Below are positions 17,239 through 59,123 of a stretch of DNA of 64,000 nucleotides, one piece after another. Made by a program: the position numbers and the translations under genes. How positions within the stretch are numbered: the stretch's first letter is position 1; each line of letters opens with the position of its first letter. This DNA comes from an uncultured Spirochaetota bacterium (lineage in GTDB: Bacteria > Spirochaetota > Brevinematia > Brevinematales > JAOACQ01). Where the stretch lies: assembly GCA_963768055.1 (NCBI GenBank), contig CAVYGN010000002.1, positions 1,824,112 through 1,888,111 on the forward strand. Reading direction: 5' to 3'. A model generated the notes under the pieces. It was not told the origin of the DNA. It did not search any database and saw only the letters and a program-made list of their open reading frames with translations.

Positions 17239-17310
17239 GGGGATGTAGCTCAGCGGGAGAGCATTGCGTTCGCAACGCAGGGGCCGGGGGTTCAAATCCC
17301 CTCATCTCCA
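17239..17310 (+). tRNA. tRNA-Ala (anticodon CGC), CCA not encoded; island integration site
   Basis: Cloverleaf GGGGATG...CATCTCC-A with G3:U70, anticodon loop TT-CGC-AA, T arm GGTTCAAATCC. Confidence 0.95.
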
Positions 17311-17394
17311 GAGTTACTTTTCAGTAATTCCTTTCATTACAATCGGTTGTAAAATCGCAGGATTCGCTGTGTACATTTTGTGTACAATTTGTAA
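17296..17394 (+). other. attL-like site: core plus arm-type repeats
   Basis: Core ATCCCCTCATCTCCA, then TAATTCCTTTCATTACAA, then TGTGTAC x2 at 11-bp period and TTTGTAA. Confidence 0.7.
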
Positions 17395-17421
17395 CCACTC
17401 AATTCGTATTGGGAGGTTACC

Positions 17422-18483
17422 ATGGGGCTCATTAAAAGATCGAACGGAATATATTATGTTCGAATCAAGAGAAGCGGAATCCTGACAATGTTCAGCCTGA
17501 GAACCAGAAACAACCATCTGGCAAACGATCTGTATCAAGCATATCTGGTTCAACAATTGAGATCAAATATCGCTCCTTCGGCTTTTAAAAAAGTAAAAGC
17601 AGCTGGCTCACGACAGGAAAAAAAGAAAGATACTCCTTATACAAATCAGTTAAAACATACGTTTGAATCCATTTGGAACGAATATTTCCAGGCAAAGATG
17701 GCAAGTAAACTCTCCAAATCGCAGTTGGGTATAAAAAAACAAGTTTTTCGTCATTTGAAGGAATTTAAACTTTACAAGGTAGAAGGGATAAACCAAGCTT
17801 TTCTAAATCAACTTTTCATATCATATAGAAGCAAATATACTGAAGACACAATCCGAAAATTCGTCGCGGAATTAAAATGCTTCCTGAATTATTGCATCAA
17901 AAACGATGTATTTTCAGACAGGGAATATCACAAACTTACTTTTCCTAAAGTAATCACAAAGGTGAGAGACACATTGATTAAAAGGGATGACATAGAGAAG
18001 ATCCTTGAATACCTTAGACAAAATGATGAAGATTTCTATACTTATTTTTTAAATCTTTTAAACCTTTACGGCCGACCAAATGAAATTCCAGGTCTTCAGA
18101 AAAAGAATTTCAACTTCAATGAAAAGCTTTGTAAAGTGTATATGAATAAAACCCGGAAAGAGAAAACAGTTGTTTTGACGGACCAGAACTTTATAAACTA
18201 TATGAGGCAAATGACTGATTGTCTAAACGATGATGATTATATACTTAAAGGCCATAACCAGGGGCCAAGTTACTATCCAAATAAATTCAGGCGGCTTAAA
18301 GAAAAACTCAACTTGAATAGGAACTACTTCTTGTACAGTGTAAGGCACACTGTTTCAAGTTTATTATATGAAAAAACAAAGGATATAAAGTTTCTTACAA
18401 ACCAGTTGGGAAATGAAGAGAAAATTCTTATTAAACACTACATTAACACCAATCTTGAGGATTTTAAAAAATATTTAGTTTGA
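17422..18483 (+). CDS. Tyrosine recombinase/integrase Int1
   Basis: N-terminal beta arm-binding-like segment; GRPNE (R), NKT (K), YSVRH, LGN, KHY. Confidence 0.9.
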   Translation: MGLIKRSNGIYYVRIKRSGILTMFSLRTRNNHLANDLYQAYLVQQLRSNIAPSAFKKVKAAGSRQEKKKDTPYTNQLKHTFESIWNEYFQAKMASKLSKSQLGIKKQVFRHLKEFKLYKVEGINQAFLNQLFISYRSKYTEDTIRKFVAELKCFLNYCIKNDVFSDREYHKLTFPKVITKVRDTLIKRDDIEKILEYLRQNDEDFYTYFLNLLNLYGRPNEIPGLQKKNFNFNEKLCKVYMNKTRKEKTVVLTDQNFINYMRQMTDCLNDDDYILKGHNQGPSYYPNKFRRLKEKLNLNRNYFLYSVRHTVSSLLYEKTKDIKFLTNQLGNEEKILIKHYINTNLEDFKKYLV

Positions 18484-18720
18484 GGTAAGAAACTCTAAGG
18501 TCTTATATTTATCCGGCAAGATATTCTGGATCATCCCTTCCAAACATCTCTTCAAGTTCAATATGGCTATTTGTCTTCATTAAAAATAATTAAAATATTT
18601 AAAAAAATTTTTATTTGTATACAATTAAATGAAATATCACTATTTTTGCCCAAAAATATATACTTTTTTATAACTATCTCAATTTATATTTAGATATAAG
18701 AGGGAATGGTTTCTTAAAAA

Positions 18721-19800
18721 ATGGAAAAGAAAAGAAGATATTCTAGAAGGTCACATCATAGAAATTTATTTCTTAGAAATGGAATCTATCAATTTAAAAA
18801 AATGATTAATGGACAATTGATTCGGTTTTCATTATGGACTAATAATTTATCTTTGGCCGAAAACTTACGGGATATTATTCTTAAGGAACGATTTTCTGAG
18901 TTTAGGAAATTAAAAGATAATAAATCACTTAAAAAAGCTCAAGAATTAGATCTAATTAATAAAAGAACCGAAAATTTGGAACAGGTTTGGAATGAATATT
19001 TTAAATTTAAAGAATTGGAAAACTTATCAACTTCACAAATGAATATTAAAAGAAAAGTTTTCCAAGACTTTTTGAAAAATCAAATTACATCAATTGATGA
19101 TTTTACTCAGTCGAATATTAATAATCTTATGAGTATTTATAAGAAAAAATACCATGATGACAGTACAAAAAAATATGTTTCGGAAATCAAATGTTTTCTA
19201 AATTTTTGTGTCAGAAGTGGTTACTTTACTCGTGAAAACTATGACCGATTATCCTGGCCAAAATTACGAACAAAAGTAAATTCAACTGTAATCTCAAAAT
19301 CTGATCTCGAAAAGATTTTTAAATATACCAAACAAAATGATAAGGATTTCTTTTTTTATCTGCAAGCGCTTTATTTTTTGAGTTGTAGGCCTTCAGAGGT
19401 TTTGGCACTTAAAAATGAAAATTTTGATTTTTCAATGTGGACTTGTAAAATCTGGATGAATAAAACAAAAAAGTTCAAAAATGTTCTTATTGTTAATAAT
19501 GAGTTTTGCCAACTACTTATAGAATATTTTCAGAATAAAACTAATGATTATCTCTGTGAACGTCATGAATCAAAGGAATATTATAGTAAAAAGTTTAAAC
19601 AGTTGAAAATTCAATTGGGATTAAATTCAAGTTACACCCTTTACAGTTTTCGGAAAAGCTCAGCTTCGCATTTATTTGAAAATACAAAAGATATAAAGTT
19701 TGTATCAAATCAATTGGGAGATAACCAAGCTATGGCAATGAAACACTATATTCATTTTGATACAAATCAATATTTGCAAAAGTATCAAAATAGTCTTTGA
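18721..19800 (+). CDS. Tyrosine recombinase/integrase Int2, paralogue of Int1
   Basis: CRPSE, NKT, YSFRK, LGD, KHY; shared blocks with Int1 (KCFLN, TKDIKF, NQLG). Confidence 0.9.
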   Translation: MEKKRRYSRRSHHRNLFLRNGIYQFKKMINGQLIRFSLWTNNLSLAENLRDIILKERFSEFRKLKDNKSLKKAQELDLINKRTENLEQVWNEYFKFKELENLSTSQMNIKRKVFQDFLKNQITSIDDFTQSNINNLMSIYKKKYHDDSTKKYVSEIKCFLNFCVRSGYFTRENYDRLSWPKLRTKVNSTVISKSDLEKIFKYTKQNDKDFFFYLQALYFLSCRPSEVLALKNENFDFSMWTCKIWMNKTKKFKNVLIVNNEFCQLLIEYFQNKTNDYLCERHESKEYYSKKFKQLKIQLGLNSSYTLYSFRKSSASHLFENTKDIKFVSNQLGDNQAMAMKHYIHFDTNQYLQKYQNSL

Positions 19801-19870
19801 TTTTTAGAAATGTCAGTCATTTAAATTTTATGAGAAGTATAAATATTAACAATAAGGAGGGTAAAAAACA

Positions 19871-20915
19871 ATGGAGAAAAATCTTTATGAAACTTTATTA
19901 GGAATCGCTCAAAACTTTGAATTTACCGATATTGACAAAGTTAATGTGGGTGCTTTGAAAAGAAAATCAAAGTCTGAGCTTTATTATAACAGGTTTATAT
20001 TTACTTCTTTAGCTCATATTCCTGATCGAGTAAAAAAAAATCCTGAGAAGTATTTCAAACACTGTTTCTATTGTTTTAAAGATGATCTTAATATTATTTA
20101 TAATGAGAGAGGGGGGTTCGGACAATAAACATTCATGGTTTATGTGGCTAATCAACAATTATCAACTAATCTGGGAAGCTTATTATAGAAGGTGGAATGG
20201 TGATTTCGATCCTACTGAGTATAAACTGGCATTCAGCCATAAACAAGTTGTAGAAGCAAAATTCCAAGGTTTCAAATATTGCTATGAAAGTGGCTACTGG
20301 AACCATAGAGAATATAGACTCAGTAATAATTGTCTACTAATAGGAAAAAGTAACATGTTGTACCTTGATATACCGATTGAAGATCAAGACAATATAGAAG
20401 GGCAAGTGTATAAAAAGATTGATGATGTTTTGCGACTTGGTGTCTTCCAGACTACCAATGAGAAAGAACGAAAGATTATTCATGACCGATTCAAATTTAA
20501 AGAGATGGAATTTGATATTTATTACAATAGTAAACCTCTTTTTGAGACATTACTCCATGAAGATGAATATCACTATGAAACAACTGCCTACCTCAAGGTA
20601 AATAAATCATCTGAACTTTATTCCTACAATGTTACTGCTAAGAAAGAAAGAAGAGACTATAACCTACCAGATGATCTCTATAAAATAGAATTGCGGTTGA
20701 AGTTTCCGTACTTCAAGGAATTGTTTAAGGTTTATCCCGAAGTAAGAACTTTAAATCCAGTCGAGCTATTTGAATGGTTGAAAAGTAGGACATCAGCTTA
20801 TTCTATTATTAATAAGTCGTTGCGAGAGATAAGGGGAATAGTTGAAGAACCGTATATCCGTTGGAAGATTCTGGATGATTTAAATAGGGAGTGGAGAGAA
20901 CTGAAAGCCTCGTAG
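19871..20915 (+). CDS. Probable replication initiator (Rep_trans-like), split by a frameshift near the G6 run at 20111-20116
   Basis: Strong RBS before 19871; removing one G fuses the 85 and 277 aa ORFs; LYSYNVTAK...YKIELRLK resembles rolling-circle Rep motifs; hairpin cluster follows. Confidence 0.5.
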
Positions 20916-20919
20916 CTGG

Positions 20920-21129
20920 AACTTTGATGCCGAAGGCAGCAAAGTTAGTTCCCCGAAACGCGAAGCGTTTAAGTTGTTTACTGCGGGCCCGCAGGACCGC
21001 AGTAAACCCCCTTTAAGGGGTTATAGTTGGCGCTAACAGTTGACCCGCAGGTCAACTGCACAACTTTTGGGTCTCAGTTCCCCAAAAGTTGCCCGTTACA
21101 TTGGGGGTCTCAGTCCCCCCCAATGTAAC
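20920..21129. other. Cluster of about 8 back-to-back hairpins, putative single-/double-strand origin
   Basis: AAACGC-GAA-GCGTTT; GTTTACTGCGG/CCGCAGTAAAC; CAGTTGACC/GGTCAACTG; CAACTTTTGGG/CCCAAAAGTTG; GTTACATTGGGGG/CCCCCAATGTAAC. Confidence 0.7.
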
Positions 21130-21617
21130 CCAGAAAATTTATTGACCAATAGCAGAGTATTTCAAACCCCCATTTTGAATATTTGATAGCCTTTTGATTC
21201 AGGATAAATTGGGGGATTTGAATTTCTAAATCTTATACAACTGTGAAATTACTTTTTATCAAAGACGTGCATTTTCATTTTCTCTGCCTGCTTTAAAGTA
21301 TGGTTATTTCCTTGCAGGTACACTAACAGTCTCTTTTTTAGGGGTGTGGATAACAAGCTGAAGACTTGACATAATCTGGTATGGTTATAAATACTTAAGC
21401 TATCTGTTTAGGGAGGGTAGGTTGTTTAAAATTATGGCTAAGATCATTGAGGATTTTGCAGCGATTATAACTTTGGGATAATATTAGATAATGGATAGAA
21501 TGACCATAATATATTGACTTCATGAGATGAAAGAACTATACTTCCAATGGGGGTAGATCATTGCTTATGCCGGACACTTTAAGATATTTTTTCAAACAAG
21601 ATTAAGGGAGGTCTTCT

Positions 21618-22149
21618 ATGTCTAATTATTTCACCCTTGTATCCCATCATATACAAGATCAAGGTCAGAGAGATGAATTTTATCAAGAAGTCCAGTTCCC
21701 TAACAGAAATTTATCAATTGGCTGGGGTGAAGTAAACCATTTTGGGAAAGATTATGATAAGATAAAACATGATATAGATCTTCAATACCCAGTTTTTAAA
21801 GGAACAAATAATCCGGATAACGGAGGCAAGTCTTTATCTATGTTTTGTTCTTTACAGCCCGGTGATATCGTATTCGTTAGAGGGAATGCTAAAATAATCG
21901 ATGTCGTAGTTATAACAGGAGCCCCGTCTTATGATTATAATCAAGGGGATTATAAAACAAATAACTATTGTACAAAGATTCCTTTCGTGCCATTGTTCGA
22001 GGACACCAGAATGAGGATTTTGACAATTGATATTCCGGCTGATATTAGAGAACAGGTCCTTTTTGAAGGAGGTAAAGCTTGTAATGAGAAGAATTGAAGA
22101 AAATATAGCCTTACGCCTGCTTCAAATGATAATTGAACAACTTAATTAA
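21618..22149 (+). CDS. Hypothetical protein resembling N-terminal DNA-reading domains of restriction enzymes; probable frameshift near 22075
   Basis: LSIGWG...LQPGDIVFV pattern; alternative frame continues LVMRRIEENIALRLLQMIIEQLN to TAA 22149. Confidence 0.45.
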
Positions 22150-22166
22150 AAGGGAGGTTAAGAAAC

Positions 22167-22415
22167 ATGCCGAACAAGAAAGAAACCGGAAAGAGAGCTG
22201 CAAGTAATGCATCCAAGACTTTGACAAGTAAATCAACTAGCAAAACTTCAAAGGTAGCTGCTGGGAGCGCTTTGTCACAGAGAAAGGCCCCCAAGAAAGA
22301 GACCTCATCTCGAGCTGCTTCAGCTGCATCAAAAACCCTTCGTGATGGCAGGACAAGCAAAGCATCCAAGTCTGCAGCTGGAAGTGCTTTGGCTCAAAAA
22401 CCTAAAAGGAAGTAA
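22167..22415 (+). CDS. Small basic Ser/Ala/Lys-rich repeat protein, putative DNA-binding
   Basis: Two internal repeats KET..RAAS.ASKTL...AAGSAL.Q; GGAGG RBS. Confidence 0.75.
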   Translation: MPNKKETGKRAASNASKTLTSKSTSKTSKVAAGSALSQRKAPKKETSSRAASAASKTLRDGRTSKASKSAAGSALAQKPKRK

Positions 22416-23017
22416 TCAGACTTAAACCTTAGTAAAGCCACCCTCTGTTCTCACCAAGATCAATCAACAATAACTCTGGAAAACCTTAAAGGTAAAGTCT
22501 TTTCCACAAGGAAATAGCCAAAACAGATTCCTTTTATTCCATAACGGTAACATGGATAATAGACAGACAACTGATCTGAAACATATGGTTGTACCCAAAA
22601 GTACAGGTGTGGATTCAAAAGTACACCCTATGACCTTGAAGTTCAGAAACTACAAAAAAAGGTAAATAAATTGATTCAGATGGAACACCCTTGTTGAAAG
22701 CATTAGTGTTTTGTGTCACATCTCGGAACTCAGCCCGTAGGCTTCGTTAAGGTTATTTTTGGTTCAGTGGGGTTATTCTTGCACTTAGGGAAAACATAAC
22801 CGGAAGGAGACTATTAAATATCTACAAATGGATGAAGAATGATAATCCCAACATCACAGGTTAAAAAGCTAAAGCAAAAGGAAAGGAAAGAAGGGAATTG
22901 GCACAGCGTTAGCAGAAATCCTATTTGTGTTTTATTGTTAGAACAAAGATTAAATAGAAATAACTGGAAATCATATATAATTATTATTACTATGCCAGAA
23001 ATACTTTTGTCAATGCT

Positions 23018-23683
23018 TTGTTCTCTGAAGGAATAACTTTATATCACTCCGAGCATTCAGATGAACTAATCAATAAAATTCAACAGAATATTCCTGAAAT
23101 AGTGGTTTTGGATGTTATTAATGAAGATTTTACTGGCATATTTGAACTTGTAAAACAAATAAAGAATCATTCATCTGATGAAATGAAAAAGACAGCGATA
23201 ATTCTTCTTATAGGCTCTATCGACAAACAAACAATTACTTCCGCAATTCAGGCCGGAGTAATTGGATTTATTAAAAGCAATGCTGCAGTAGATTTTGTTT
23301 ACAAATATATTATGGATACTTATCAAAAGGTCCGGGGGGTTCCCCCTGAAAGAAAATATGTGAGGATTAAAATCGAATCTAATGACAGGATCGGCATCAA
23401 ATTCCGGTCTCCTGTGAATTCACGGCTTATTATCGGTCAAATTAAAGATATCAGCTTCGGCGATATCGCTGTAGAATTAGCCGGTACATTCCCCCCTGAA
23501 TCAATAGCCAACGGATCGGAGATAAAGAATATGCAGTTCATTTTAGAAGGAAAGGATGTGTTTATCGATGGAATTGTGGTTGTTTATCAAAATAAATTTT
23601 GCGCATTTAGATTTAAAGACATGACGACAGAAATAAAAGAAATCATTTCTCAGTATGTTTTTAAAAAAATATGCTGTATATAA
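23018..23683 (+). CDS. Receiver + PilZ domain protein, 5' end probably degraded
   Basis: VVLD receiver motif, RKYVR and DISFGD PilZ-like motifs; no clean start. Confidence 0.7.
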   Translation: MFSEGITLYHSEHSDELINKIQQNIPEIVVLDVINEDFTGIFELVKQIKNHSSDEMKKTAIILLIGSIDKQTITSAIQAGVIGFIKSNAAVDFVYKYIMDTYQKVRGVPPERKYVRIKIESNDRIGIKFRSPVNSRLIIGQIKDISFGDIAVELAGTFPPESIANGSEIKNMQFILEGKDVFIDGIVVVYQNKFCAFRFKDMTTEIKEIISQYVFKKICCI

Positions 23684-24122
23684 GAAAATTTGCCTATTAA
23701 GTTAAATCAGTAACTTGTTTAAATCTTGTTAGTTTATGCTTACGATATTTTGCATTTCCCCAAAAATTTCAGATTCGAGTAATATTTCCAAATCAAAATC
23801 TGAATGATTAAAATTAAAATTCTGATCTATAAAATAATAGAGAGGAGTAATAATCGTATACCATGGCTATGAAAGAGCCGTTCGTGGGGTATTTATTTAA
23901 AAAAGATATTTATCTGAAATTACTGAAAGAAGTCTACGAAGGCTGTGATGAATATGGTTGATGATTGGTTTTTAATATGATAGTACTCCGGAGGGGGATT
24001 CAAAATCTGAGAATAAATGAAAAAAGTCCACAAAGGAAGTGATACTTGGGTTCGTGGGGAGGTTAAAAAAAAGTATTTTTAAGAATCTGAAATTTTCATT
24101 CAAATTTATAAATAAATGTAAA

Positions 24123-24204
24123 ATAAGTAGCGAAAAACCTTTGATTTTCTGAATGACTTGTTTTATAATAATATAAGTAGCGAAAATAGAATATTTCGCT
24201 ATTT
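24123..24204 (+). promoter_or_regulatory. Recombinase promoter with flanking binding sites
   Basis: TTGATT-17-TATAAT (24141-24169); ATAAGTAGCGAAAA twice; AAGTAGCGAAA-8bp-TTTCGCTATTT inverted repeat at 24175-24204. Confidence 0.7.
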
Positions 24205-24214
24205 AGAGGTTTTT

Positions 24215-26714: not shown

Positions 26715-26777
26715 TGACCCGCTCCCCAAAATTTGGTCCAACTTATATGTTAGTATATAATATAAGGAGGACATTTT

Positions 26778-50130: not shown

Positions 50131-50160
50131 TATAGGGTAGTGGGGTATGCTACCCAAGGG
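50131..50160 (+). promoter_or_regulatory. Possible CsoR operator
   Basis: GGGTAG...GGGGTAT..CTACCC G/C-tract palindrome directly upstream of csoR. Confidence 0.4.
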
Positions 50161-50169
50161 GTTTTATTT

Positions 50170-50484: not shown

Positions 50485-50559
50485 AATAAGCCCCGCATAC
50501 GGGACTTGCAAGGAATTGATTAATTGTGTGCTATCGCGCACAACAAGGAGAATATAGAT

Positions 50560-52977
50560 ATGGAAAAAGCGATTACTTTAGGCATTACCGGAATGTCATG
50601 CGCGTCATGCTCTCAAAGGATTGAGAAAGGGCTTATCAAGCTTACCGGAATATTATCCGCGAATATTAATCTCGCCCTGGAAAAGGCTCAGGTATCCTAC
50701 GACGATTCACAGGTTAAAATCGAGGATATAAAGAGGAAAATCGAAGATATCGGCTATGGGGCTATCCTCCCTGAAAAGGAAACAATAAAGAAAAGCGGTT
50801 CTGCCGAACTTTCCATAAGCGGAATGACCTGCGCTTCATGCAGCGGAAGGATTGAAAAGAGACTTGCTGGACTCGCCGGGGTGACTATTGCCTCCGTAAA
50901 TCTTGCAACAGAAATTGCCCATGTCTATTATGATTCCTCACTGATAGATCTTTCAGAGATGATCAAAGCTGTACAGGATCTGGGATACGGGGCCTGTGAA
51001 CGCAAGGAAGAATCCGTGGATAAAGCCGCCGAGGCGCACAAGAGAGAAATGAATAAACTGGGCCTGCTTTTTGTTTTTTCAGCCATCCTAAGCTTCCCTT
51101 TGGTACTCGGAATGATATTCATGCTGCTGAAAATCGAGTTTTCATTATTTGATAACCCGTATTTCCAGCTTGCCCTCGCCACACCTGTTCAGTTTGTAAT
51201 AGGTTTCAGGTTTTATAAAAACTCCTGGCACAATTTAAAGTCGCTGTCGCCCGGCATGGATGTGCTTGTAGCTCTCGGTACATCCGCCGCATACTTCTTC
51301 AGCATCTATAATGCCTTCCTCGGAGGCAATCCTGAACAGCTATATTTTGAAGGCGGAACTATTATCATCACGCTCGTGCTTCTCGGCAAATACCTGGAAG
51401 CGGTGGCAAAGGGGAAGACGTCCGATGCCATAAAAAAGCTCCTGTCGCTCCAGGCCAAAACCGCCCGGGTTATCAGAAACGGAGTTGAAATCGACTTGCC
51501 GGTCGAGGAAGTTATAGTCGGTGAAAGGATCGTTGTCAAACCCGGCGAAAAAGTCCCTGTTGACGGGGTCATAGTGGAAGGGTATTCCTCAATCGACGAG
51601 AGCATGGTTACGGGTGAAAGCATCCCTGTCGAGAAAAAGACTGGTTCCAGTGTAATAGGAGCAACGCTCAACCAGAACGGCAGCTTTATTTTTGAGGCTC
51701 AAAAGATCGGGAAGGACACAATGCTGGCCCAGATTATCAGGTTCGTGGAAGAGGCCCAGGGTTCCAAAGCGCCTGTTCAGCGTCTGGCGGACCAGGTTGC
51801 CGGTATTTTCGTTCCATCCGTTCTGGTCATAGCACTTGTTACTTTCGGAATATGGATGTTTCTGGGACATGACCTGGCCAGAGCTCTTGTATCGGCTATT
51901 TCCGTGCTTGTGATAGCCTGCCCATGTGCCCTGGGACTTGCGACTCCTACAGCTATAATGGTAGGCACTGGAAAGGGCGCGGAAAAGGGCATCCTTATCA
52001 AGAGCGGGGAAGCTCTGGAGAAGGCTTACCGGATAAGCATGGTGGTTTTCGATAAAACGGGAACAATAACGAATGGCAAACCGGCATTGACCGATATATT
52101 CCCTTTCGAAGGGTTTTCAGCAGATGATGTACTGCGCTATGCCGCTATTGCGGAAAATAACTCAAACCACCCCCTCGCCAAACCTATAGTCGATGCGGCA
52201 AAAGAAAAAGGCATACTGGCTGCGTCGGAAAGATTTGATAACATTCCCGGGAAGGGGGTTGTTGCCAGTTTCAATAATAAGGAAATATTATTCGGAAATA
52301 AGAAGCTTTTATCCGAGCACGGGATAGATATCCGCGATGCGGACCTGGTTATGGAAAAACTTGAAAAAGAAGGAAAAACGGCTATGCTGGCGTCTTACGA
52401 CGGGAATATCGCCGGAATTATAGCAGTCGCGGATACGATAAAGGAGAACTCGCATCGAGCCGTGCAAGCCCTGCAGAAAATGGGGATCAGAACAATGATG
52501 ATAACGGGAGACAACGCGAGGACTGCCCAGGCGATTGCAAAACAGGCGGGAATAGATAAAGTCATAGCGGATGTTCTTCCAGGGGATAAGGCAAAGGAAA
52601 TAGAGATCCTGAAGAAATCAGGAGAGACCGTTGCGATGGTCGGGGACGGCATCAACGACGCGCCCGCCCTGGCCGCTTCCGACATCGGGATAGCTATCGG
52701 AGCGGGAACGGATATCGCCATCGAGGCTTCGGATATTACGCTTGTAAGGAACGATCTGATGTCTATTGTGGACGCGATCGGGCTTTCCAGGAAAACCATG
52801 GGGAAAATAAAGCAGAACCTTTTCTGGGCCTTTGTTTATAACAGCATCGGAATACCGTTTGCCGCGCTGGGCCTCCTGAACCCTGTTATAGCGGGGGGCG
52901 CGATGGCATTCAGTTCCGTGTCCGTAGTGACAAATTCACTTTCACTTAAAAGGATTAAATTAGGAGTAAATTCATGA
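50560..52977 (+). CDS. copA: Cu(I)-translocating P1B-type ATPase
   Basis: Two GMxCASC HMA domains, TGES, CPC, DKTGT, HP, GDGIND, YN and MAFSS motifs. Confidence 0.96.
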
Positions 52978-53195
52978 ATGCGAGAAAGATCTTTAAAATT
53001 GAAGGGATGTCCTGCCAGCATTGTGAAAAAGCCATCGAACAGGCTTTGAAGATTAATGGCGTCGGCAAGGCGAAAGCTGATCATGCGAAAAAACTTGCGC
53101 GGGTAGAATACGACCCGGATGTTATATTAGAAAATGAGATCATTCAGATCATCACGGACGCCGGATATAATGTGAAAGAAGTAACGATCGGGTAA
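52974..53195 (+). CDS. copZ: Copper chaperone (HMA)
   Basis: GMSCQHC, 73 aa, adjacent to copA. Confidence 0.85.
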
Positions 53196-53221
53196 TTTAT
53201 AATAATGAAAGGAGTTGAATT

Positions 53222-55012
53222 ATGAACGTTCGCAAAATATTCAAAATCGAAGGGATGACCTGCCATCACTGCGAAAACACTATCGAGGAAGCTTTGAAGA
53301 AAAAAGAGGGCATCATTAAGGTCGAAGCTCACCATGCCAAAAAAATGGCGAGGATCGAGTACGATCCGGCAGTGATATCCGAGGCTGAGATAAAATTAAT
53401 TATACGCGAAGCCGGATATGAAGTAAAGGATGTATCGGAAGATACCGGTTCGAGCAAAAAAGCCGTTGAAATCGCGCAGGTTGTGGGAATAAGTCTGGCC
53501 CTTCTGGGTATATATTTCCTGATTTCAAAAACGATAGGGTTCAATTTTATCCCCCAGGTAAATTCTTCCATGGGGCTCGGAATGATCTTCGTGGTTGGAA
53601 TCATTACATCTCTTCACTGTGTGGCAATGTGCGGGGGGATAAGCATATCCCAATGCGTGGACAAGAAGGGGAATAAATATGCAAACAGCCTGCTCTATAA
53701 CGCAGGGAGGGTCATTTCATATACGATCCTCGGCGGAATAATCGGAGCTCTGGGTTCTGTATTCAATTTTTCCCCGGCCATCAAGGGCGGAATAGCCGTC
53801 GTTGCGGGAATCTTTATGGTATTCGTGGGCCTGAGGATGGCGGGAGTTTTCACCTTTCTCAAGAAGGTTAAAATCCCTTTTGCAGGGATATTTTCAAAAT
53901 TCGCTCCTAAAAAAACCGGATTGAAAAAACAAAGTTACGGCCCTTTCATTGTAGGCCTTTTAAACGGGCTTATGCCCTGCGCGCCTCTCCAGGCGATGCA
54001 GCTATACGCGCTGGGTTCGGGAAGTGCATTAGCGGGAGCGCTATCGATGTTCTTCTTTTCAATAGGCACGATGCCCCTGATGTTCGGCCTGGGCACGGCT
54101 GCCTCACTCCTTTCGAGAAAATTCTCGGGAAGCCTGATCAGGATAAGCGCTGTGCTTGTGGTTTTTCTGGGACTTGTCATGGTGAACCGGGGTATGTCGT
54201 TGACCGGAAACGGGGTTGTAATAACCCCGGCTCAGGCAAATGTAGCTGCAATAAAAGGTGATCACCAGGAAGTCACCATGGTCGTCAGTCCGAACGGGTA
54301 CGAACCTATCGTTGTACAGAGGGGTATACCTGTTAGGTGGATCATTAAAGCAAATAGCGATTCATTAAACGGCTGTAATAACGGGATCCTTGTTCCGCAG
54401 TTCAATATAACGAAAAAACTGGCTCCCGGTGATAATATCGTGGAATTCACTCCGGATACATCCGGGAAATTCGGTTATTCATGCTGGATGGGTATGATCC
54501 GGAGCACTGTAACGGTTGTTGACGATATAGCAAAGGTAGATCCTGATTCCATAAAAACAAACGACCAGTCGGTGCCTCAGAATTATGCCGGAGGATGTTG
54601 CAAGGGCGGTACCGGAAAGCCCCTGTCTGAAAGCGATATATATGTACCTCCGGTTGTTAATAACCGGCAGGAAGTAACTATTAACGTGGACCAGGACGGT
54701 TACAGCCCGGCGATAATCGTAATTCAGAAGGGTGCAGCTTTTAAAGTAAAATTTGTCGCCAAACAGCTGACATCCTGCAACAGCGGCGTGTTTTTCCCGG
54801 AATACGGCGGAGGCCTTGACTTTACAAAGGGACAGCTGGAAACACCGCTTCTCAAAGCCTCACGGGATTTTCATTTTACCTGCTGGATGGGCATGATCAA
54901 GGGCTTCGGGGCGGTAGTCGACGACGTCAATAATTTTAATAAAGCGGATTTAATAGCCAGGGCTAGTCTGCCCGGACCCGGCGGCGGCAGGGGCGGATGC
55001 TGCGGAAGATAA
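53222..55012 (+). CDS. HMA + DsbD_2/TauE-like membrane domain + cupredoxin-like domains
   Basis: GMTCHHC, SLHCVAMCGG, GLMPC and two CWMGM motifs. Confidence 0.88.
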   Translation: MNVRKIFKIEGMTCHHCENTIEEALKKKEGIIKVEAHHAKKMARIEYDPAVISEAEIKLIIREAGYEVKDVSEDTGSSKKAVEIAQVVGISLALLGIYFLISKTIGFNFIPQVNSSMGLGMIFVVGIITSLHCVAMCGGISISQCVDKKGNKYANSLLYNAGRVISYTILGGIIGALGSVFNFSPAIKGGIAVVAGIFMVFVGLRMAGVFTFLKKVKIPFAGIFSKFAPKKTGLKKQSYGPFIVGLLNGLMPCAPLQAMQLYALGSGSALAGALSMFFFSIGTMPLMFGLGTAASLLSRKFSGSLIRISAVLVVFLGLVMVNRGMSLTGNGVVITPAQANVAAIKGDHQEVTMVVSPNGYEPIVVQRGIPVRWIIKANSDSLNGCNNGILVPQFNITKKLAPGDNIVEFTPDTSGKFGYSCWMGMIRSTVTVVDDIAKVDPDSIKTNDQSVPQNYAGGCCKGGTGKPLSESDIYVPPVVNNRQEVTINVDQDGYSPAIIVIQKGAAFKVKFVAKQLTSCNSGVFFPEYGGGLDFTKGQLETPLLKASRDFHFTCWMGMIKGFGAVVDDVNNFNKADLIARASLPGPGGGRGGCCGR

Positions 55013-55038
55013 TGGTAAACAAATTAAAGAGGTTATAT

Positions 55039-55299
55039 ATGAATCATAAAGGACATTCATCCCATATGATATGGATGGTCCTTTGCTGCGTGATACCATT
55101 GGTATTGATCTTTGCTCTGCCGCTTTTGAAAATTCAAAACTTGGCTTTTAATAACGGCTTAAGAGTCGTCACATCGTTGATCTGTCCCCTTATGATGGTA
55201 TTTATGATGATTCCGATGTTTAGGTCTCATAAAAACGATGAAGAACATCATTTTCATGAAATGAGACAGGTGGAAAGCGTCATAGTGGAAAAGAAATAA
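55039..55299 (+). CDS. Small His/Met/Cys-rich membrane protein (DUF2933-like)
   Basis: HMIWMVLCC...LICPLMMVFMM. Confidence 0.65.
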   Translation: MNHKGHSSHMIWMVLCCVIPLVLIFALPLLKIQNLAFNNGLRVVTSLICPLMMVFMMIPMFRSHKNDEEHHFHEMRQVESVIVEKK

Positions 55300-55311
55300 A
55301 AGGGAGGAAGT

Positions 55312-55497
55312 ATGAGGATGCAAAGGGATATTGTTTGTGGTATGATGGTCGATACGGCCATCGGATTATATGCAGATTACCTTGGTAAGAAGTATTATTT
55401 CTGTATAGAAAGCTGTATGGAGGAATTCCTAGTAGATCCAGAAAAGTATATCAATGAAGTTAAGAATGAACAGGGAGAATATCACAAAGTATCCTGA
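55312..55497 (+). CDS. YHS domain protein
   Basis: DIVCGM...YYFC..SC...F..DPEKY. Confidence 0.88.
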   Translation: MRMQRDIVCGMMVDTAIGLYADYLGKKYYFCIESCMEEFLVDPEKYINEVKNEQGEYHKVS

Positions 55498-55587
55498 TTA
55501 TTGATATCTTTTAGTCAAAAAAATGCCTGGGTGTTCCCCAGGCTGTCTTATTCACTTTTTATATATGTTGGTTTTAAGAGGGAATTT

Positions 55588-56193
55588 ATGAAGGATACTG
55601 CCCAAAAATATGACCGTGGATCTAAAAATTATGATTTATTTGAATTGCCGGCTGAAAAGCTGCTGTTTTCCAGACTTCGTAAAAAGGCATTCCTGGAGAT
55701 TTCTGGTAAAATTCTGGATATAGGGGTAGGAACAGGAAAGAATCTGCCTTATTATCCTGAAGAAGCTGAAGTAACAGCAATCGACTTCAGCAGCGGCATG
55801 CTTGAAAAAGCGGTAAAACTTAAAAGCCGGCTCGGGCTTTCAAATGTCAAGCTGATAAAAATGGATGTTCAGGATTTGAAGTTCGATAATGACAGTTTCG
55901 ATTTTGTTATTTCTTCTTTTGTTTTCTGCACGGTACCGGATCCTGTTAGAGGTTTGGTGGAGGCGTACCGCGTATTAAAACCCGGCGGATCTGCCATATT
56001 CATAGAACACATGAAAAGTGATTCATCTTTGATCAATATTATTTTAAGCACAATGAATCTGATGACTGTTCCGATGATGGGTACTTACATGAACCGTGAA
56101 ACCCAGAAAAATATTGAAAATGCAGGGTTTAGAATTGAAAAGGTCGAAAAACATCTGTTCGATATAATACGTGTGATCATGGCCGGTAAATAA
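55588..56193 (+). CDS. Class I SAM-dependent methyltransferase
   Basis: LDIGVGTG, FCTVPDP and RVLKPGG motifs. Confidence 0.9.
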   Translation: MKDTAQKYDRGSKNYDLFELPAEKLLFSRLRKKAFLEISGKILDIGVGTGKNLPYYPEEAEVTAIDFSSGMLEKAVKLKSRLGLSNVKLIKMDVQDLKFDNDSFDFVISSFVFCTVPDPVRGLVEAYRVLKPGGSAIFIEHMKSDSSLINIILSTMNLMTVPMMGTYMNRETQKNIENAGFRIEKVEKHLFDIIRVIMAGK

Positions 56194-56278
56194 AAGAGGT
56201 ACCCCCCTTACGATACCCTCCCAACCCAAAAAAGCCCGAGGAACCCCTCCCCAGGCCTATTTAAAAAAAGAATTAAGA

Positions 56279-57153
56279 TTATTTATCAGCCCTGTTTTGA
56301 TAATCCATCATCCCCCTGTAATCCATTTTCTTCCTTTGTTCGGGAGCAAGTATTTCAAGCACGCTGACCTGGTATTCAGTTTCCTTTTCAGAGATTGCGG
56401 ACAAAATCGTGAATATGTCCTTATTTGCGTTCTTGATAGCGTCTTTATCCGGCTTGGCCGCAGACCAGAGATCGAACAGACTGCGCCTTTTCTCAAGCAT
56501 CTGCGACCTCAAAGGATCGGTCTCTTTTTCATAATTTGATTTTAACTCGGTTATCTTTTTTACCTGGTCTTTCGTCAGGCCCAGGTATTCCGCAAAACGA
56601 TAATCAAGCATCCAGTTTATATCCATAAGCGTGCCGGTCCCCATAAAAGAACCGAATGACATCATAGGCATATATGGATTATTACCGTAAAAGCTCCCGT
56701 AATATCCCATCATACGTCCATACCCAGAGCCATAGCCCCTGCCCATCATTCCTATCGGCAGACCATGCAGATATCGGTATCCTATCTGCTCATGCATGTT
56801 TTCAAGCGACGCCGAACCTTCCCCCCCCATCATATTGTCCATCCATTCGTGCGTCTCCTTATTACCAATCATAACGCCCATAAAGCATCGCCTAATTCTT
56901 CCTGAAGCTTTGGGCTGACCTTATCAGGATCAATGGACTCTTCTTCCTTCAAACCCTGTTCTTTTCGGATTTTGATAAGTATGGATTTGACTGCCTCAGA
57001 TTTTTCCAGAGCTTCACCGCGATTATTGTAATACCCGCTCATCATTCCACCATAGCTGTTACCGTTCCCCATCATCCCCTGGGAAAACAGTGTCGACGGT
57101 ATAAAAATAGCTGAAAAAACTACAATAGAACAAAATTTCAATATTACCGACAT
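56279..57153 (-). pseudogene. Met/Gly-rich Spy/CpxP-like periplasmic metal-binding protein with 1-nt frameshift near 56882
   Basis: Two ORFs fuse by comparison with the paralogue at 57180 (LGDA.M.VMIGN...MMGGEGSASL); LTKDQ...LAPEQR Spy-like motifs. Confidence 0.7.
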
Positions 57154-57179
57154 AAATCCTCCGTTTATCATTATGTTAA

Positions 57180-57809
57180 TTACAGATCCTTCTTGATCTT
57201 TTCGAATTCTTCCCCGGTTATTTCGCCCTTTGCATAACGCTTTTTCAGTATTTCCAGCGGAGTTTCCGAAGTCGAATGGCCTATAAGATTACCGCCCTTC
57301 GCGGCCCTTACCGCAAAAAAGATAACCAATATGACGATTATCAGAAACAATAGTCCCATAAACATTCCTCCCCAGCCCCATCCGGCCCAGCCCATCATTC
57401 CCGGGCCGTAACCATAACCATTCATCATACCATAACCTCCATAATTCAAATTGTTTTCTATGAACGGATAACCCATCATCCCCATCATACCGAGAGGATA
57501 ACCTGCCAGATAGTTGTAACCGATCCTCTGGTGAAAAGCTGTAAGCGATGCGGAACCTTCTCCTCCCATCATTTTGTCCATCAGTTCATGTCTTTCAGAA
57601 TTGCCTATCATGACTTCCATTACGGCATCGCCTAATTCTTCAAGTTTTTGAGGACTTACTTTATCGGCATTAATTTTCTGGCCGTTTGTCAATCCCTGCT
57701 CCTGCCGGATTTCAGACAATACCGTATCAATGCTTTTCGATTTATCCTGACTGTAAACAAGACCGGTCATCATTATAATCAGGAATAATACAAACAAAAC
57801 TTTTCTCAT
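57180..57809 (-). CDS. Met/Gly-rich protein with C-terminal SHOCT domain
   Basis: PLEILKKRYAKGEITGEEFEKIKKDL. Confidence 0.85.
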   Translation of the reverse strand: MRKVLFVLFLIIMMTGLVYSQDKSKSIDTVLSEIRQEQGLTNGQKINADKVSPQKLEELGDAVMEVMIGNSERHELMDKMMGGEGSASLTAFHQRIGYNYLAGYPLGMMGMMGYPFIENNLNYGGYGMMNGYGYGPGMMGWAGWGWGGMFMGLLFLIIVILVIFFAVRAAKGGNLIGHSTSETPLEILKKRYAKGEITGEEFEKIKKDL

Positions 57810-57824
57810 ACATCCCTCCTTTTT

Positions 57825-58313
57825 TTACATCTTCATAGCATCTTTACCATGATCAGAGATTTGCGCTTCAAACCAATTGTGTATAGACTTTATAAGATTT
57901 ATATCAGAAGTCCGATATGTGATCTGCCCGCCATCGGAAAGATCCGAATAAGTAATATTGATGTTTGAAGCCCCTTTTTCCAAGTCAGAAAGCCCCGGCA
58001 TGTTTCTCCCATGAAGCGATGACGGGTCTGAAAAATCCCCGCTGCTGAATTTCCGAACTTCCATTTGAAGATGTTCACGGATTAAATTAATTTGTTCATT
58101 GTCTTTTGGGTTTTTTACAACAACCTGTTGTATTCCGCCAGTAGCTGTTTGTTTAAAAATATGAGTTGTGGCATCCAGCTTGAAAGACATGACTTGAGAA
58201 CCTCTGTCATGAATCATGGATTGACGGCCATAATGAATTATTACATAGCTTAACACCCCCACTAATATGACAGCTATCACTAAATAAATAGTTGTTTTAA
58301 AAGTCGATCTCAT
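57825..58313 (-). CDS. Hypothetical exported protein associated with the metal cluster
   Basis: N-terminal TM; QVMSF.LDATTHIF...HG..MPGL...SDHG. Confidence 0.7.
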   Translation of the reverse strand: MRSTFKTTIYLVIAVILVGVLSYVIIHYGRQSMIHDRGSQVMSFKLDATTHIFKQTATGGIQQVVVKNPKDNEQINLIREHLQMEVRKFSSGDFSDPSSLHGRNMPGLSDLEKGASNINITYSDLSDGGQITYRTSDINLIKSIHNWFEAQISDHGKDAMKM

Positions 58314-58389
58314 ATTACAATTCTCCCTAATATGAACTTCCTGTTACTGCCCCATAATTTTTCGTCGGTCATTCAAAATTCTCTGTATG

Positions 58390-58722
58390 TCATGGTTTGT
58401 TCCTATTGAAAATATTCAGTTTTTTATTTAACTGTTGAATCATTAAATCCCTCAGAATGATGCATGCCTCAAGAATTTTAGGATCTGATAATTTATAATA
58501 CATATTTGTCCCTTCCCTTCTGGATTCTACAACACCCCGGTCTTTCATAATGGATAAATTTTGTGAAACATTCGGTACATTGATTTTCATAAGCCGAGCC
58601 AGTTCGTCAACGCATTTTTCACCATCACCTAATAGGAATAAAATTTCAATCCTTTTCGGGCTGCCCATAAATTTACAAAAATCAGCATGCATCTTATAAA
58701 TTTCTTTGCTATCCATTTGCAT
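58390..58722 (-). CDS. ArsR/SmtB family transcriptional regulator
   Basis: PKRIEIL...EKCVDEL...VSQNL...RREG..MYY. Confidence 0.9.
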   Translation of the reverse strand: MQMDSKEIYKMHADFCKFMGSPKRIEILFLLGDGEKCVDELARLMKINVPNVSQNLSIMKDRGVVESRREGTNMYYKLSDPKILEACIILRDLMIQQLNKKLNIFNRNKP

Positions 58723-59006
58723 TGCAGACCATCCTTATTTGCAATATTATGCAAGTATAGAATAAATATAAAAATAAATGTCCTTATAGTCAAAAAAATA
58801 TGTTTAAATATCTGCAAAAAAGAGCAACACTGCCTAATTGATGCCATTTTGAGACAAGCGTAATCGATACTTATTTAAAAAAATAGGAAAATCGAAGCTT
58901 GATTCTTTTATCAGTCTTTCTAATATTTACTTTAATCGCATTAAGTAAATTAAATAAAAGAGGAATTAAAAAATAGAGTTTTTAAAATGAATCGAATAAA
59001 ATACAG

Positions 59007-59123
59007 TTGGTACCGATTTGGTACGGTCATTTAAGGCTTATTAAAGGGATAGGTTGATTTAATTTGTTTGTTTGCAGTAACATGTAAAAAAAGATCTGCT
59101 CGAAAATAATCCCATCATCTCCG
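59007..59123 (+). other. attR-like site
   Basis: TTGGTACCGATTTGGTAC 102 bp before core ATCCCATCATCTCCG (13/15 match to the tRNA-Ala 3' end). Confidence 0.7.

What the first reader, a model, noticed from the sequence alone, without database searches (positions are those of the whole stretch)
17296..59123. Tandem att-delimited modules at tRNA-Ala, including integrase-free cargo modules
Seen: four sites share the core ATCCC-N5-CTCC(A/G) at 17296 (tRNA end), 46380, 49901 and 59109. A left motif TTGGTACC.ATTT(G)GGTA lies 103, 103 and 102 bp before the last three cores. A right motif, TAA(T/C)TCCTTT followed by TGnnTAC repeats and TTTGTAA, has its first TGnnTAC 72, 73 and 73 bp after the start of the first three cores. 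So the tRNA site has only the right arm, 59109 has only the left arm, and the two internal sites have both. Established: this is the attL / attP-like / attR pattern produced by serial integration with arm-binding tyrosine integrases. Inference: module B (46.4-49.9 kb) and module C (49.9-59.1 kb) encode no integrase and would be mobilised in trans by Int1/Int2.
Basis: partly seen in the sequence, partly recalled or inferred. Interest (0 to 1): 0.82.

Follow-up and report, generated by a model that had tools for sequence, protein, structure and literature searches.

The report
Composite genomic island at tRNA-Ala
A roughly 42-kb stretch after a tRNA-Ala gene is a patchwork of mobile-DNA modules joined at repeated integrase attachment sites, a known way for genomic islands to grow, seen here in a little-studied spirochete-like lineage.

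Summary
Four same-strand cores (17296, 46380, 49901, 59109) carry left and right arm motifs at fixed offsets (-103/-102, +72/+73), far beyond chance.

- **Left boundary confirmed.** A Brevinematales MAG (L001) is syntenic up to the last base of the identical tRNA-Ala(CGC) and has no island.
- **Integrases.** Int1 and Int2 are intact, belong to a small distinct family, and model as lambda-Int-like three-domain proteins with an N-terminal arm-binding-type fold.

The best reading is site-specific accretion plus decay, with integrase-less, CIME-like modules. This is a known kind (PMC5704250, PMC3146451).

- Module B is an IS21 copy plus about 0.9 kb of debris, not cargo.
- The two inner sites are near-identical to each other, but their core differs from the tRNA core at 5 of 15 positions. 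Whether C can move separately in trans is therefore open.
- A vestigial inner-type arm lies at 58849-58891.
- An Int1-like pseudogene fragment lies at 62641-62797, beyond the proposed end.
- The right boundary is not confirmed.

No mobility was shown. Interest is modest.

The parts
17239..17310 (+). tRNA-Ala(CGC). Its last 15 nt (17296-17310) are the attL core, site S1.
   Evidence: ARAGORN. Rfam RF00005, 67.1 bits. By eye it is identical to the L001 tRNA over its whole length. Synteny with L001 ends at 17310.
17311..17400 (+). Right (P') arm of S1. TAATTCCTTTCAT at 17325; TGTGTAC at 17368 and 17379 (11-nt phasing); TTTGTAA at 17388.
17422..18483 (+). Int1, a tyrosine integrase of 353 aa, full length. 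N-terminal arm-binding-type domain (residues 2-49), linker, core-binding domain and catalytic domain.
   Evidence: PF00589 and PF13102. Family profile search. AF2 model, pLDDT 91.3. Foldseek aligns full-length lambda Int over 351-366 columns. R218, K243, R308 and Y340 are invariant in the 35-row alignment.
18721..19800 (+). Int2, a tyrosine integrase of 359 aa, 38% identical to Int1. It is a separate lineage of the same family.
   Evidence: In the tree, Int1+P0002 (support 100/100) is sister to Int2+P0004 (93/77).
17311..46379 (.). Module A (29.1 kb, GC 0.315), a decayed mosaic. It holds Int1, Int2, a truncated third recombinase (24158-24859), two IS3-type elements (26778-27904, 38778-40294), a type IIG restriction-modification fragment (27983-29335), an FRG/PDC-S15 protein, methyltransferases, a TrlF-type ATPase split by IS3 (38201-38743 and 40284-42578), an HU-like protein (42699-43019), PilZ, and an N-terminally truncated TrpRS (44163-45074).
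46221..46468 (+). Inner attP-like site S2. Left arm: TGGGTAT 46267, TTGGTAC 46277, TGGGTAC 46289. Core 46380-46394. Right arm: TAACTCCTTTCAT 46410, TGATTAC 46453, TTTGTAA.
46395..49900 (.). Module B (3.5 kb). It holds an IS21-family element at about 46706-49326 (IstB 46804-47553, IstA 47560-49116, both on the - strand) plus 885 nt of residue, including a truncated bacteriohemerythrin ORF (49438-49782).
   Evidence: IS ends were read (inverted repeat I9). NCBIfam bacteriohemerythrin matches only model positions 1-72 of 129.
49742..50000 (+). Inner attP-like site S3. Left arm TTGGTAC 49798. Core 49901-49915. Right arm TGATTAC at 49974 and 49985, then TTTGTAA.
   Evidence: The 245-nt repeat shared with S2 is 87% identical. 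The longest exact shared run is 33 nt and spans the core.
49916..59108 (.). Module C (9.2 kb, GC 0.43), a copper/metal-handling gene set with no integrase. It holds CsoR-like (49984-50484), CopA-type P-type ATPase (50524-52977), an HMA chaperone (52974-53195), an HMA-DsbD_2-cupredoxin protein (53222-55012), a methyltransferase (55501-56193), a Metal_resist/LTXXQ protein (56279-56881, -), a SHOCT protein (57180-57809, -) and an ArsR-type regulator (58390-58722, -).
58849..58891 (+). Vestigial fragment of an inner-type left arm. It matches 46320-46362 (84%; 35 of 43 in the alignment) and has no core beside it.
   Evidence: family D3; 0 of 1000 dinucleotide shuffles reach the observed score.
59007..59123 (+). 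Site S4. Left arm TTGGTAC at 59007 and 59018. Core 59109-59123 matches the tRNA core at 13 of 15 positions, and GAGT follows both cores. There is no significant right arm.
62641..62797 (+). Int1-like integrase pseudogene fragment. It is 88% identical in nucleotides to window 17490-17647 (Int1 codons about 24-75), has an in-frame stop, and is cut at both ends. It lies outside the reported interval.
   Evidence: tblastn, E = 8.8e-20. blastn, 139 of 158 identical. Sequence read.

Best explanation
The interval is a composite genomic island at the 3' end of tRNA-Ala(CGC). It was built by repeated site-specific integration (accretion) of related integrative elements, followed by deletion and IS insertion.

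**How it works (shown and inferred)**
- The elements use lambda-type tyrosine integrases. Each att site has a short core that copies the tRNA 3' end from the T-loop onward.
- Each site also has arm-type heptamers (TKNKTAC) in direct repeat at 11-12-nt phasing: about 100 nt to the left (P arm) and about 73 nt to the right (P' arm, next to int). This layout is shown.
- After serial integration, the tRNA keeps only a P' arm, the far end keeps only a P arm, and junctions between modules carry both. This matches what is seen.
- Int1 and Int2 are the only intact recombinases of this family in the window. Int1 sits directly beside attL.
- Modules B and C have att-like ends but no integrase. They are CIME-like remnants, and B is almost entirely an IS21 copy.

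**Which units could move (inferred)**
- The whole array could excise by S1 x S4, which share an 8-nt exact run.
- B could excise by S2 x S3, which share a 33-nt exact run.
- A alone or C alone could excise only if strand exchange lies within the shared ATCCC block, or if the integrase tolerates heterology.

Present-day activity is not shown. Much of the array is decayed.
For: - **Site layout.** The four cores and their arm motifs sit at fixed offsets.
- **Left boundary.** Synteny with the related MAG L001 ends at the last base of the tRNA. Identity is about 70% in nucleotides over 9.4 kb, and the neighbouring EAL-HDOD protein is 79% identical. L001 has no integrase or arms after its tRNA.
- **Integrases.** Int1 is full length, and the family keeps R, K, R and Y invariant in 35 of 35 rows. 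The AF2 model (pLDDT 91.3) has an N-terminal three-strand sheet plus helix, a disordered linker, and core-binding and catalytic domains. Full-length lambda Int structures align over 351-366 columns.
- **Separate arrivals.** Int1 and Int2 each have a closer relative elsewhere, so they are not a recent tandem duplication.
- **Separate origins.** GC is 0.315 for A, 0.43 for C and 0.415 for the left flank.
- **No integrase in B or C.** There is no integrase or integrase remnant there.
- **Deletion within the array.** A vestigial inner-type arm lies at 58849-58891.
- **Precedent.** Accretion, decay to CIMEs, and integrase-less tandem islands at a tRNA-like gene are described in passages of PMC5704250 and PMC3146451.
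Against: - **Core mismatch.** The inner cores (ATCCCTCCTCCTCCG) differ from the tRNA core at 5 of 15 positions. In register they share only ATCCC as an exact run. If exchange occurred left of these differences, integration of such an element into this tRNA would have replaced the tRNA's acceptor end with a mismatched one. Most tyrosine recombinases need identity in the overlap region (abstract of PMC2817482, as shown in the listing).
- **Inner vs outer sites.** The two inner sites are alike (left arms 115/125) but are related to the outer sites only at motif level.
- **No att site between Int1 and Int2.** No significant att site lies there (101-416 of 1000 shuffles reach the observed scores). 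The Int1 module therefore has no P arm of its own.
- **Right boundary unconfirmed.** None of the L001 ORFs wholly downstream of its tRNA has a homologue in the window at E <= 1e-4; the one hit listed is a frame spanning the tRNA itself. None of 13 homologues of the first of these ORFs lies on the window's 1.88-Mb contig.
- **Integrase debris beyond the end.** An Int1-like pseudogene fragment lies at 62641-62797, beyond the supposed attR.
- **Missing functions.** No excisionase, relaxase or transfer gene was recognised.
- **Catalytic residues.** Int1 has Tyr and Asn at the two histidine positions. This mapping onto lambda Int is recalled, not from a call. Tyr305 is nearly invariant in the family. 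Position 331 is H, D or N in the 12-row alignment.
Confidence: 0.6

Rival explanations
1. Nested, two-tier element. S1 and S4 (tRNA-type cores) are the ends of one Int1-type element that spans the whole interval. The inner-type sites belong to a second, sister att system, presumably that of Int2. The inner modules (Int2-A, B, C) were inserted into, or assembled at, a secondary site inside the Int1 element. They were not inserted into the tRNA.
For: - The cores fall into two classes. S1 and S4 match at 13/15, and both are followed by GAGT. S2 and S3 match at 15/15. Cross-class matches are 10-11/15.
- There are two integrase lineages side by side.
- An inner-type left-arm fragment (58849-58891) lies just inside the outer left arm at 59007. 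This is where the right end of an inner array should be.
- Int1 has no P arm of its own next to it.
Against: - The expected inner-type attL upstream of Int2 is not significant (160 and 416 of 1000 shuffles).
- No data link Int2 to the inner arms.
- The outer element would reduce to an integrase plus attP of about 1.4 kb.
- The arm motifs of both classes are very similar, so one integrase may serve both.
Confidence: 0.17
2. Fossil array. The sites are relics of old integrations and nothing in the array is mobile now. B and C are fixed chromosomal DNA, and Int1 and Int2 are inactive or act elsewhere.
For: - Decay is heavy: three IS elements, a split TrlF ATPase, truncated TrpRS, type IIG enzyme, hemerythrin and third recombinase.
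- The cores have diverged.
- One right arm keeps a single heptamer (46453).
- One junction has lost its core.
- No excisionase was recognised.
- GC of C (0.43) is host-like.
Against: - Int1 and Int2 are full-length, with R, K, R and Y kept.
- The tRNA end is perfectly restored.
- S2 and S3 share a 33-nt exact run over the core. With arms 87% identical, a run of that length is not by itself unusual (my estimate, not from a call).
Confidence: 0.18
3. The S2/S3 pair arose by ordinary duplication or IS21-associated rearrangement of a single junction, not by integration of a separate element B.
For: - B is mostly IS21.
- I found no target-site duplication at the IS ends I inferred (read by eye). 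This would fit an IS-associated rearrangement.
Against: - The copies are only 87% identical, so the event is not recent.
- The repeat boundaries (46221-46465 and 49742-49986) coincide with the arm-core-arm unit, not with the IS ends (about 46706 and 49326).
- The residue of B holds a gene fragment (hemerythrin) that is absent next to S2's left arm.
Confidence: 0.05

Closest known systems
Tandem accretion of integrative elements with cis-mobilizable elements (CIMEs), as described for ICESt1/ICESt3-type elements of Streptococcus and reviewed in PMC5704250 (passages read). The primary papers (Pavlovic 2004, Bellanger 2011) were seen only as entries in that paper's reference list.
   Same: - Serial site-specific integration at the 3' end of a tRNA gene.
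- Internal chimeric att sites.
- Modules that keep att ends but have lost their integrase.
- Decay by deletion.
   Different: - No conjugation or mobilisation genes were recognised here, so the partner is not an ICE or IME by these searches.
- The host is a Brevinematales-like lineage.
- The integrase belongs to a small separate family.
- The cores of the inner and outer sites differ.
- No excision data exist.
Tandem ssrA genomic islands of Dehalococcoides (PMC3146451, passages read)
   Same: - Several islands in tandem downstream of a tRNA-like gene, each bounded by a repeat of its 3' end.
- 15 of those islands lack an integration module and were proposed to be cis-mobilizable.
- The insertion point maps to the T-loop region.
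   Different: - Those islands use a large serine recombinase and a 20-bp repeat without arm-type sites.
- Here the recombinases are tyrosine integrases with P and P' arms.
Lambda integrase and its attP (structures 1z1g, 1z1b, 5j0n)
   Same: - Three-domain protein with an N-terminal arm-binding-type fold.
- The att site has a core plus phased arm-type repeats on both sides.
- An HU-family protein is encoded in the island (42699-43019). It could serve as the bending factor; this is inference.
   Different: - Only 14-15% sequence identity.
- The target is a tRNA 3' end.
- No Xis-like gene was found.
- Two active-site histidine positions are Tyr and Asn in Int1. The mapping to lambda residues is recalled, not from a call.
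- No phage genes are present.

Membership tests
Tyrosine recombinase, lambda-Int-like (arm-binding) integrases | Catalytic domain of the phage-integrase family with the Arg, Lys, Arg and Tyr active-site residues | tested here: met
   PF00589 gives 47.0 and 48.1 bits against a cut-off of 27.1. R218, K243, R308 and Y340 are invariant in 35 of 35 aligned family members.
Tyrosine recombinase, lambda-Int-like (arm-binding) integrases | The two active-site histidines (His-II and His-III) | tested here: inconclusive
   At the recalled positions, Int1 has Y305 (nearly invariant in the family) and N331 (H, D or N across 12 rows). Variants at these positions exist in other active recombinases (recalled). 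Activity was not tested.
Tyrosine recombinase, lambda-Int-like (arm-binding) integrases | Separate N-terminal arm-binding domain (three-stranded sheet plus helix) joined by a flexible linker | tested here: met
   The AF2 model has strands 2-5, 11-17 and 20-25, helix 31-49, and a linker at 53-75 with pLDDT below 50. Full-length lambda Int chains align over 351-366 columns with TM about 0.6. No Pfam arm-binding model matched at E <= 0.001. This is a model, not a binding test.
Tyrosine recombinase, lambda-Int-like (arm-binding) integrases | Arm-type repeats in attP, distinct from the core, that the N-terminal domain binds | tested here: inconclusive
   Phased TKNKTAC heptamers are present at fixed offsets on both sides. 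Binding is not testable with these tools.
tRNA-integrated genomic island | One boundary at the 3' end of a tRNA gene, with an adjacent integrase | tested here: met
   The tRNA ends at 17310 and Int1 starts at 17422. Synteny with L001 ends at 17310.
tRNA-integrated genomic island | Direct repeat of the tRNA 3' end at the other boundary | tested here: met
   59109-59123 matches the tRNA core at 13 of 15 positions, and both are followed by GAGT.
tRNA-integrated genomic island | An empty site in relatives that joins the two flanks | tested here: not met
   The one relative found (L001) has an unoccupied tRNA. None of the ORFs wholly downstream of that tRNA has a homologue in the window. It is a different species (79% protein identity), so this does not refute the boundary. 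Same-species strains could not be searched.
Cis-mobilizable element (CIME) | Flanked by att sites of a resident integrative element | tested here: met
   B lies between S2 and S3. C lies between S3 and S4, with an extra vestigial arm at 58849. This is evidence at sequence level only.
Cis-mobilizable element (CIME) | Lacks its own integration and transfer genes | tested here: met
   No recombinase of this family and no remnant of one lies in 46395-59108. B does hold an IS21 transposase pair, which is a different kind of mobility.
Cis-mobilizable element (CIME) | Excises or transfers together with, or through, the neighbouring element's integrase | not testable with these tools
   This needs junction PCR or long reads. 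Core mismatch between S3 and S4 (11/15) makes separate excision of C uncertain.
Integrative conjugative or mobilizable element (ICE/IME) | Relaxase, coupling protein or type IV secretion genes | tested here: not met
   None appeared among the 55 ORFs scanned with Pfam, nor in the NCBIfam, PHROGs or PADLOC scans of the unassigned ones. Nine or more ORFs remain without any family.
Integron | IntI-type integrase and attC-bounded cassettes | tested here: not met
   Integron-integrase models score 37-51 bits against a cut-off of 265. The sites have arms and a tRNA-derived core. The modules are 3.5-29 kb long.
Prophage or phage satellite | Phage structural, packaging or replication genes | tested here: not met
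   PHROGs matched only the integrases and three families of unknown function among 14 ORFs. Int1 has no tblastn match in 50,697 phage records.

The most novel reading that the evidence does not exclude
The island is a two-tier system. An Int1-type element, bounded by tRNA-type cores, carries inside it an array of attP-like sites of a sister integrase (Int2). That array acts as a docking platform where kilobase-scale, integrase-less cargo circles, such as the copper module, are inserted and exchanged by attP x attP-type recombination. This would work rather like an integron, but built from lambda-type arm-bearing sites.
Probability: 0.1. Interest if true: 0.65.

Novelty: new member of a known kind. 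Interest (0 to 1): 0.3.

Why it matters
The locus is a clean, sequence-level example of island growth by accretion and decay in a lineage (Brevinematales-like) where mobile elements are essentially undescribed. A search for 'Brevinematales' plus 'integrase' found 0 papers.

It also defines a small, distinct lambda-like integrase family together with its probable core and arm sites. That gives a ready substrate set for in vitro work. It shows how a complete copper-handling gene set can sit in an integrase-less, att-bounded module.

It does not change the general picture of how such islands form.

Tried and rejected
- **Integrase-based locus search.** I then spent the single genome-contig scan on the tRNA 3' 42 nt. 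It returned one locus, so integrase relatives could not be seen in their genomic context.
- **Cluster look-up.** The check for strain-level presence or absence could not be made.
- **Decayed right arm at 59109.** This looked plausible in the MAFFT alignment but is not significant. Rejected.
- **Decayed att site between Int1 and Int2.** There is an ATCCCTTCC at about 18531 and a TGTATAC near 18614. It is not significant against shuffles. Kept only as a possibility.
- **P'-like sequence right of the 58849-58891 fragment.** Not significant (287 and 668 of 1000 shuffles).
- **Right-boundary tests.** The GH39-like right-flank gene has homologues at 50-57% identity on large contigs. The first gene downstream in L001 has 13 homologues, none on the window's contig. 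Neither result settles the boundary.
- **Plasmid and phage collections.** Module C matches only about 100 nt of P-type ATPase genes (24 records, none covering 80% or more). The 260-nt inner site has no match in plasmids or phages. Int1 has no match in phages.
- **Rfam.** Only the tRNA was found.
- **IS21 target-site duplication.** None was seen at the ends I inferred (by eye).
- **Core hit at 38228 on the minus strand.** No arms are near it, so I treat it as chance.
- **Not checked.** No paper supplements were consulted.

Full report
**1. Observation**

ARAGORN and Rfam find one tRNA in the window: tRNA-Ala(CGC) at 17239-17310 on the + strand.

The core pattern ATCCC-N5-CTCCR occurs 5 times against 0.22 expected, and 0 of 100 shuffles reach 5. 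Four hits are on the + strand at the reported coordinates. The fifth (38228, - strand) lies in an ORF and has no arm motif nearby.

The arm motifs sit as reported:
- The left motif TTGGTACCNATTTGG has exactly three perfect matches, 103, 103 and 102 nt before the last three cores.
- TGNNTACNNTTTG occurs 5 times against 0.40 expected, and all five lie in the three right arms.
- The first heptamer starts 72, 73 and 73 nt after the first three cores.

Read as T[GT]N[GT]TAC, the heptamers form direct repeats phased 11-12 nt apart in both arms. There are 10 in the arm windows against 0.25 expected at random positions, and 0 of 20,000 draws reach 10. The motif was defined after the fact, so the fixed offsets are the real argument.

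The right flank of 59109 is not significantly like the other right arms. The "right arm only / both / both / left arm only" pattern is therefore confirmed.

**2. Gene content**

*Integrases.* Int1 (17422-18483) and Int2 (18721-19800) are full-length tyrosine recombinases and are 38% identical.

*Module A* (17311-46379, GC 0.315) is a decayed mosaic. It holds:
- a truncated third recombinase;
- two IS3-type elements;
- the C-terminal half of a type IIG restriction-modification enzyme;
- an FRG/PDC-S15 protein and several methyltransferases;
- a TrlF-type ATPase split by one of the IS copies;
- an HU-family protein and PilZ proteins;
- an N-terminally truncated TrpRS.

*Module B* (46395-49900) is largely an IS21-family element with IstA and IstB. 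I place its ends near 46706 and 49326 from inverted repeat I9. The remaining 885 nt hold a bacteriohemerythrin ORF that matches only the first 72 of 129 model positions.

*Module C* (49916-59108, GC 0.43) is a coherent copper/metal set: a CsoR-like repressor, a CopA-type ATPase, an HMA chaperone, an HMA-DsbD_2-cupredoxin protein, a methyltransferase, a Metal_resist protein and an ArsR-type regulator.

Neither B nor C holds an integrase or a remnant of one. A tblastn with 40 of the 152 family proteins then held gave a best E-value of 1.1 or worse in that interval.

**3. The integrases**

A word-based search found one relative of Int1, at 54% identity.

A profile search of 1.84 billion representatives found 2603 hits at E <= 0.001 but only 47 at E <= 1e-30. 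Most of the best-scoring ones cover the whole length, including the N terminus.

In a 35-row alignment, R218, K243, R308 and Y340 are invariant.

The AlphaFold model (pLDDT 91.3) has four parts:
- an N-terminal three-stranded sheet and helix (residues 2-49);
- a disordered linker (53-75);
- a helical core-binding domain;
- the catalytic domain.

Foldseek aligns full-length lambda integrase chains over 351-366 columns with TM about 0.6. XerA and Tn1549 Int also score well.

This supports the class "arm-binding integrase" at the level of fold. Binding itself is inferred.

In a maximum-likelihood tree, Int1 pairs with P0002 (support 100/100) and Int2 pairs with P0004 (93/77), inside one clade (94/97). 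The two genes are therefore separate lineages and not a recent duplication.

**4. Comparison with a relative**

My one genome-contig scan, with the tRNA's last 42 nt, found a single locus. L001 comes from a MAG titled "uncultured Brevinematales bacterium".

- It is about 70% identical in nucleotides to window 8053-17310. The alignment stops at the last base of the tRNA (L001 10042 = window 17310).
- The neighbouring EAL-HDOD proteins are 79% identical.
- After the tRNA, L001 has a hydrolase, a DUF6320 protein, two unassigned ORFs and two further genes, one with a metallo-beta-lactamase fold. It has no integrase and no arm-bearing site.

The left boundary of the island is thus confirmed.

The right boundary is not:
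- None of the L001 ORFs wholly downstream of its tRNA has a homologue in the window at E <= 1e-4. The only hit in that search is a frame spanning the tRNA itself.
- None of 13 database homologues of the first of these ORFs sits on the window's 1.88-Mb contig.
- The GH39-like gene right of 59123 has its best homologue at 57% identity.

However, L001 is a different species, so the test is inconclusive.

**5. Details that change the picture**

(a) *The sites fall into two classes*.
- S2 and S3 are one 245-nt repeat at 87% identity. Their cores are identical and they share a 33-nt exact run.
- S1 and S4 share 13 of 15 core positions, an 8-nt exact run (TCATCTCC), and GAGT after the core.
- Between the classes, cores match at 10-11 of 15. 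The only exact run in register is ATCCC.

All four sites begin their tRNA likeness at the same point, the end of the T-loop. In tRNA-targeting elements, strand exchange usually lies near that point (recalled, not from a call).
- If the overlap region lies in or next to ATCCC, all four sites may be compatible and simple serial integration holds.
- If it lies further right, only S1 x S4 and S2 x S3 are matched pairs.

Most tyrosine recombinases need identity in the overlap (abstract of PMC2817482, seen in the listing).

(b) *A vestigial inner-type arm.* A 43-nt fragment of the inner-type left arm lies at 58849-58891 with no core beside it (84% to 46320-46362; 0 of 1000 shuffles reach the score). 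It sits just before the S4 left arm. This marks a junction that was partly deleted.

(c) *Integrase debris beyond the proposed end.* A 158-nt fragment 88% identical to the 5' part of Int1, with an in-frame stop, lies at 62641-62797 next to transposase debris. Integrase-related debris therefore continues beyond the proposed end.

(d) *No att site between Int1 and Int2.* No significant att site separates them.

**6. Mechanism**

The most likely history is accretion of related integrative elements at this tRNA, followed by deletion and IS insertion. That leaves integrase-less, att-bounded modules.

Both parts of this are described in the literature:
- The review PMC5704250 describes the CIME concept and the three-step accretion scheme (passages read).
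- PMC3146451 describes Dehalococcoides ssrA islands, 15 of which lack an integration module (passages read).

What is shown here is the site architecture, the left boundary, the integrase class and the gene content.

What is inferred is which integrase acts on which site, where strand exchange occurs, and whether anything still moves.

The units most likely to excise are the whole array (S1 x S4) and B (S2 x S3).

A two-tier reading is not excluded. In it, an outer Int1 element carries an inner array of Int2-type sites. It fits points (a), (b) and (d).

**7. Verdict**

However:
- the "cargo module" label fits only C;
- mobilisation in trans is unproven, and for C alone it depends on tolerance of unlike cores;
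- the right end is unconfirmed.

This is a new member of a known kind of structure, in a poorly studied lineage. A search for 'Brevinematales' plus 'integrase' found 0 papers.

Noticed in passing
window 62641-62797 (and possibly 62491-62515): There is an Int1-like integrase pseudogene fragment here. It is 88% identical in nucleotides to Int1 codons about 24-75, has an in-frame stop, and sits next to a transposase C-terminal remnant in the ORF 62792-64000 (-). A 25-nt stretch like the Int1 3' end lies just after the pirin gene (23 of 25 identical, E = 5e-4 in a small search)..
   Followed up: partly
window 30646-30688, 31773-31815, 33561-33603; L001 13507-13559, 14367-14443: A conserved 43-nt motif lies upstream of several small genes in module A (cupin, DUF5063-like, DUF3795). 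It contains TTGATA-N17-TAGAAT with a conserved GC-rich spacer. The same motif lies upstream of two genes downstream of the tRNA in the related MAG. It looks like a lineage-specific promoter plus operator. It also hints that part of module A comes from the same lineage..
   Followed up: partly
window 38201-38743, 38778-40294, 40284-42578: A TrlF-family (Ppl-like) AAA ATPase gene is split by an IS3-type insertion. The N-terminal 180 aa match model positions 1-142, and the C-terminal 764 aa match positions 172-944..
   Followed up: partly
window 24158-24859: A third tyrosine recombinase of the Xer/integron-like type is present. It has only the catalytic domain (model positions 92-261 of 263), so it is probably truncated at the N terminus..
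   Followed up: no
window 27983-29335 and 29427-30290: The C-terminal methylase/specificity half of a type IIG restriction-modification enzyme lies here (it matches positions 486-732 of a 1011-position model), directly after an IS3-type element. It is followed by an FRG-domain protein that matches the candidate defence family PDC-S15. Module A looks like a decayed defence island..
   Followed up: partly
window 42699-43019: An HU/IHF-family DNA-binding protein is encoded inside the island. It could be the DNA-bending accessory factor that arm-binding integrases need. This is inference only..
   Followed up: no
window 44163-45074: A tryptophan--tRNA ligase homologue lacks about the first 35 model positions. 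It lies in the AT-rich part of module A and is probably a pseudogene or an accessory copy..
   Followed up: no
window 46706-49326: The IS21-family element has repeated GGCATGTTTC motifs near both ends. I could see no target-site duplication at the ends I inferred. This may mean an adjacent deletion removed most of module B..
   Followed up: partly
window 25665-26774 (-): A 369-aa ORF matches only the C-terminal 310 positions of a 1258-position PHROG family of unknown function (E = 6.8e-44). It is probably another truncated gene..
   Followed up: no
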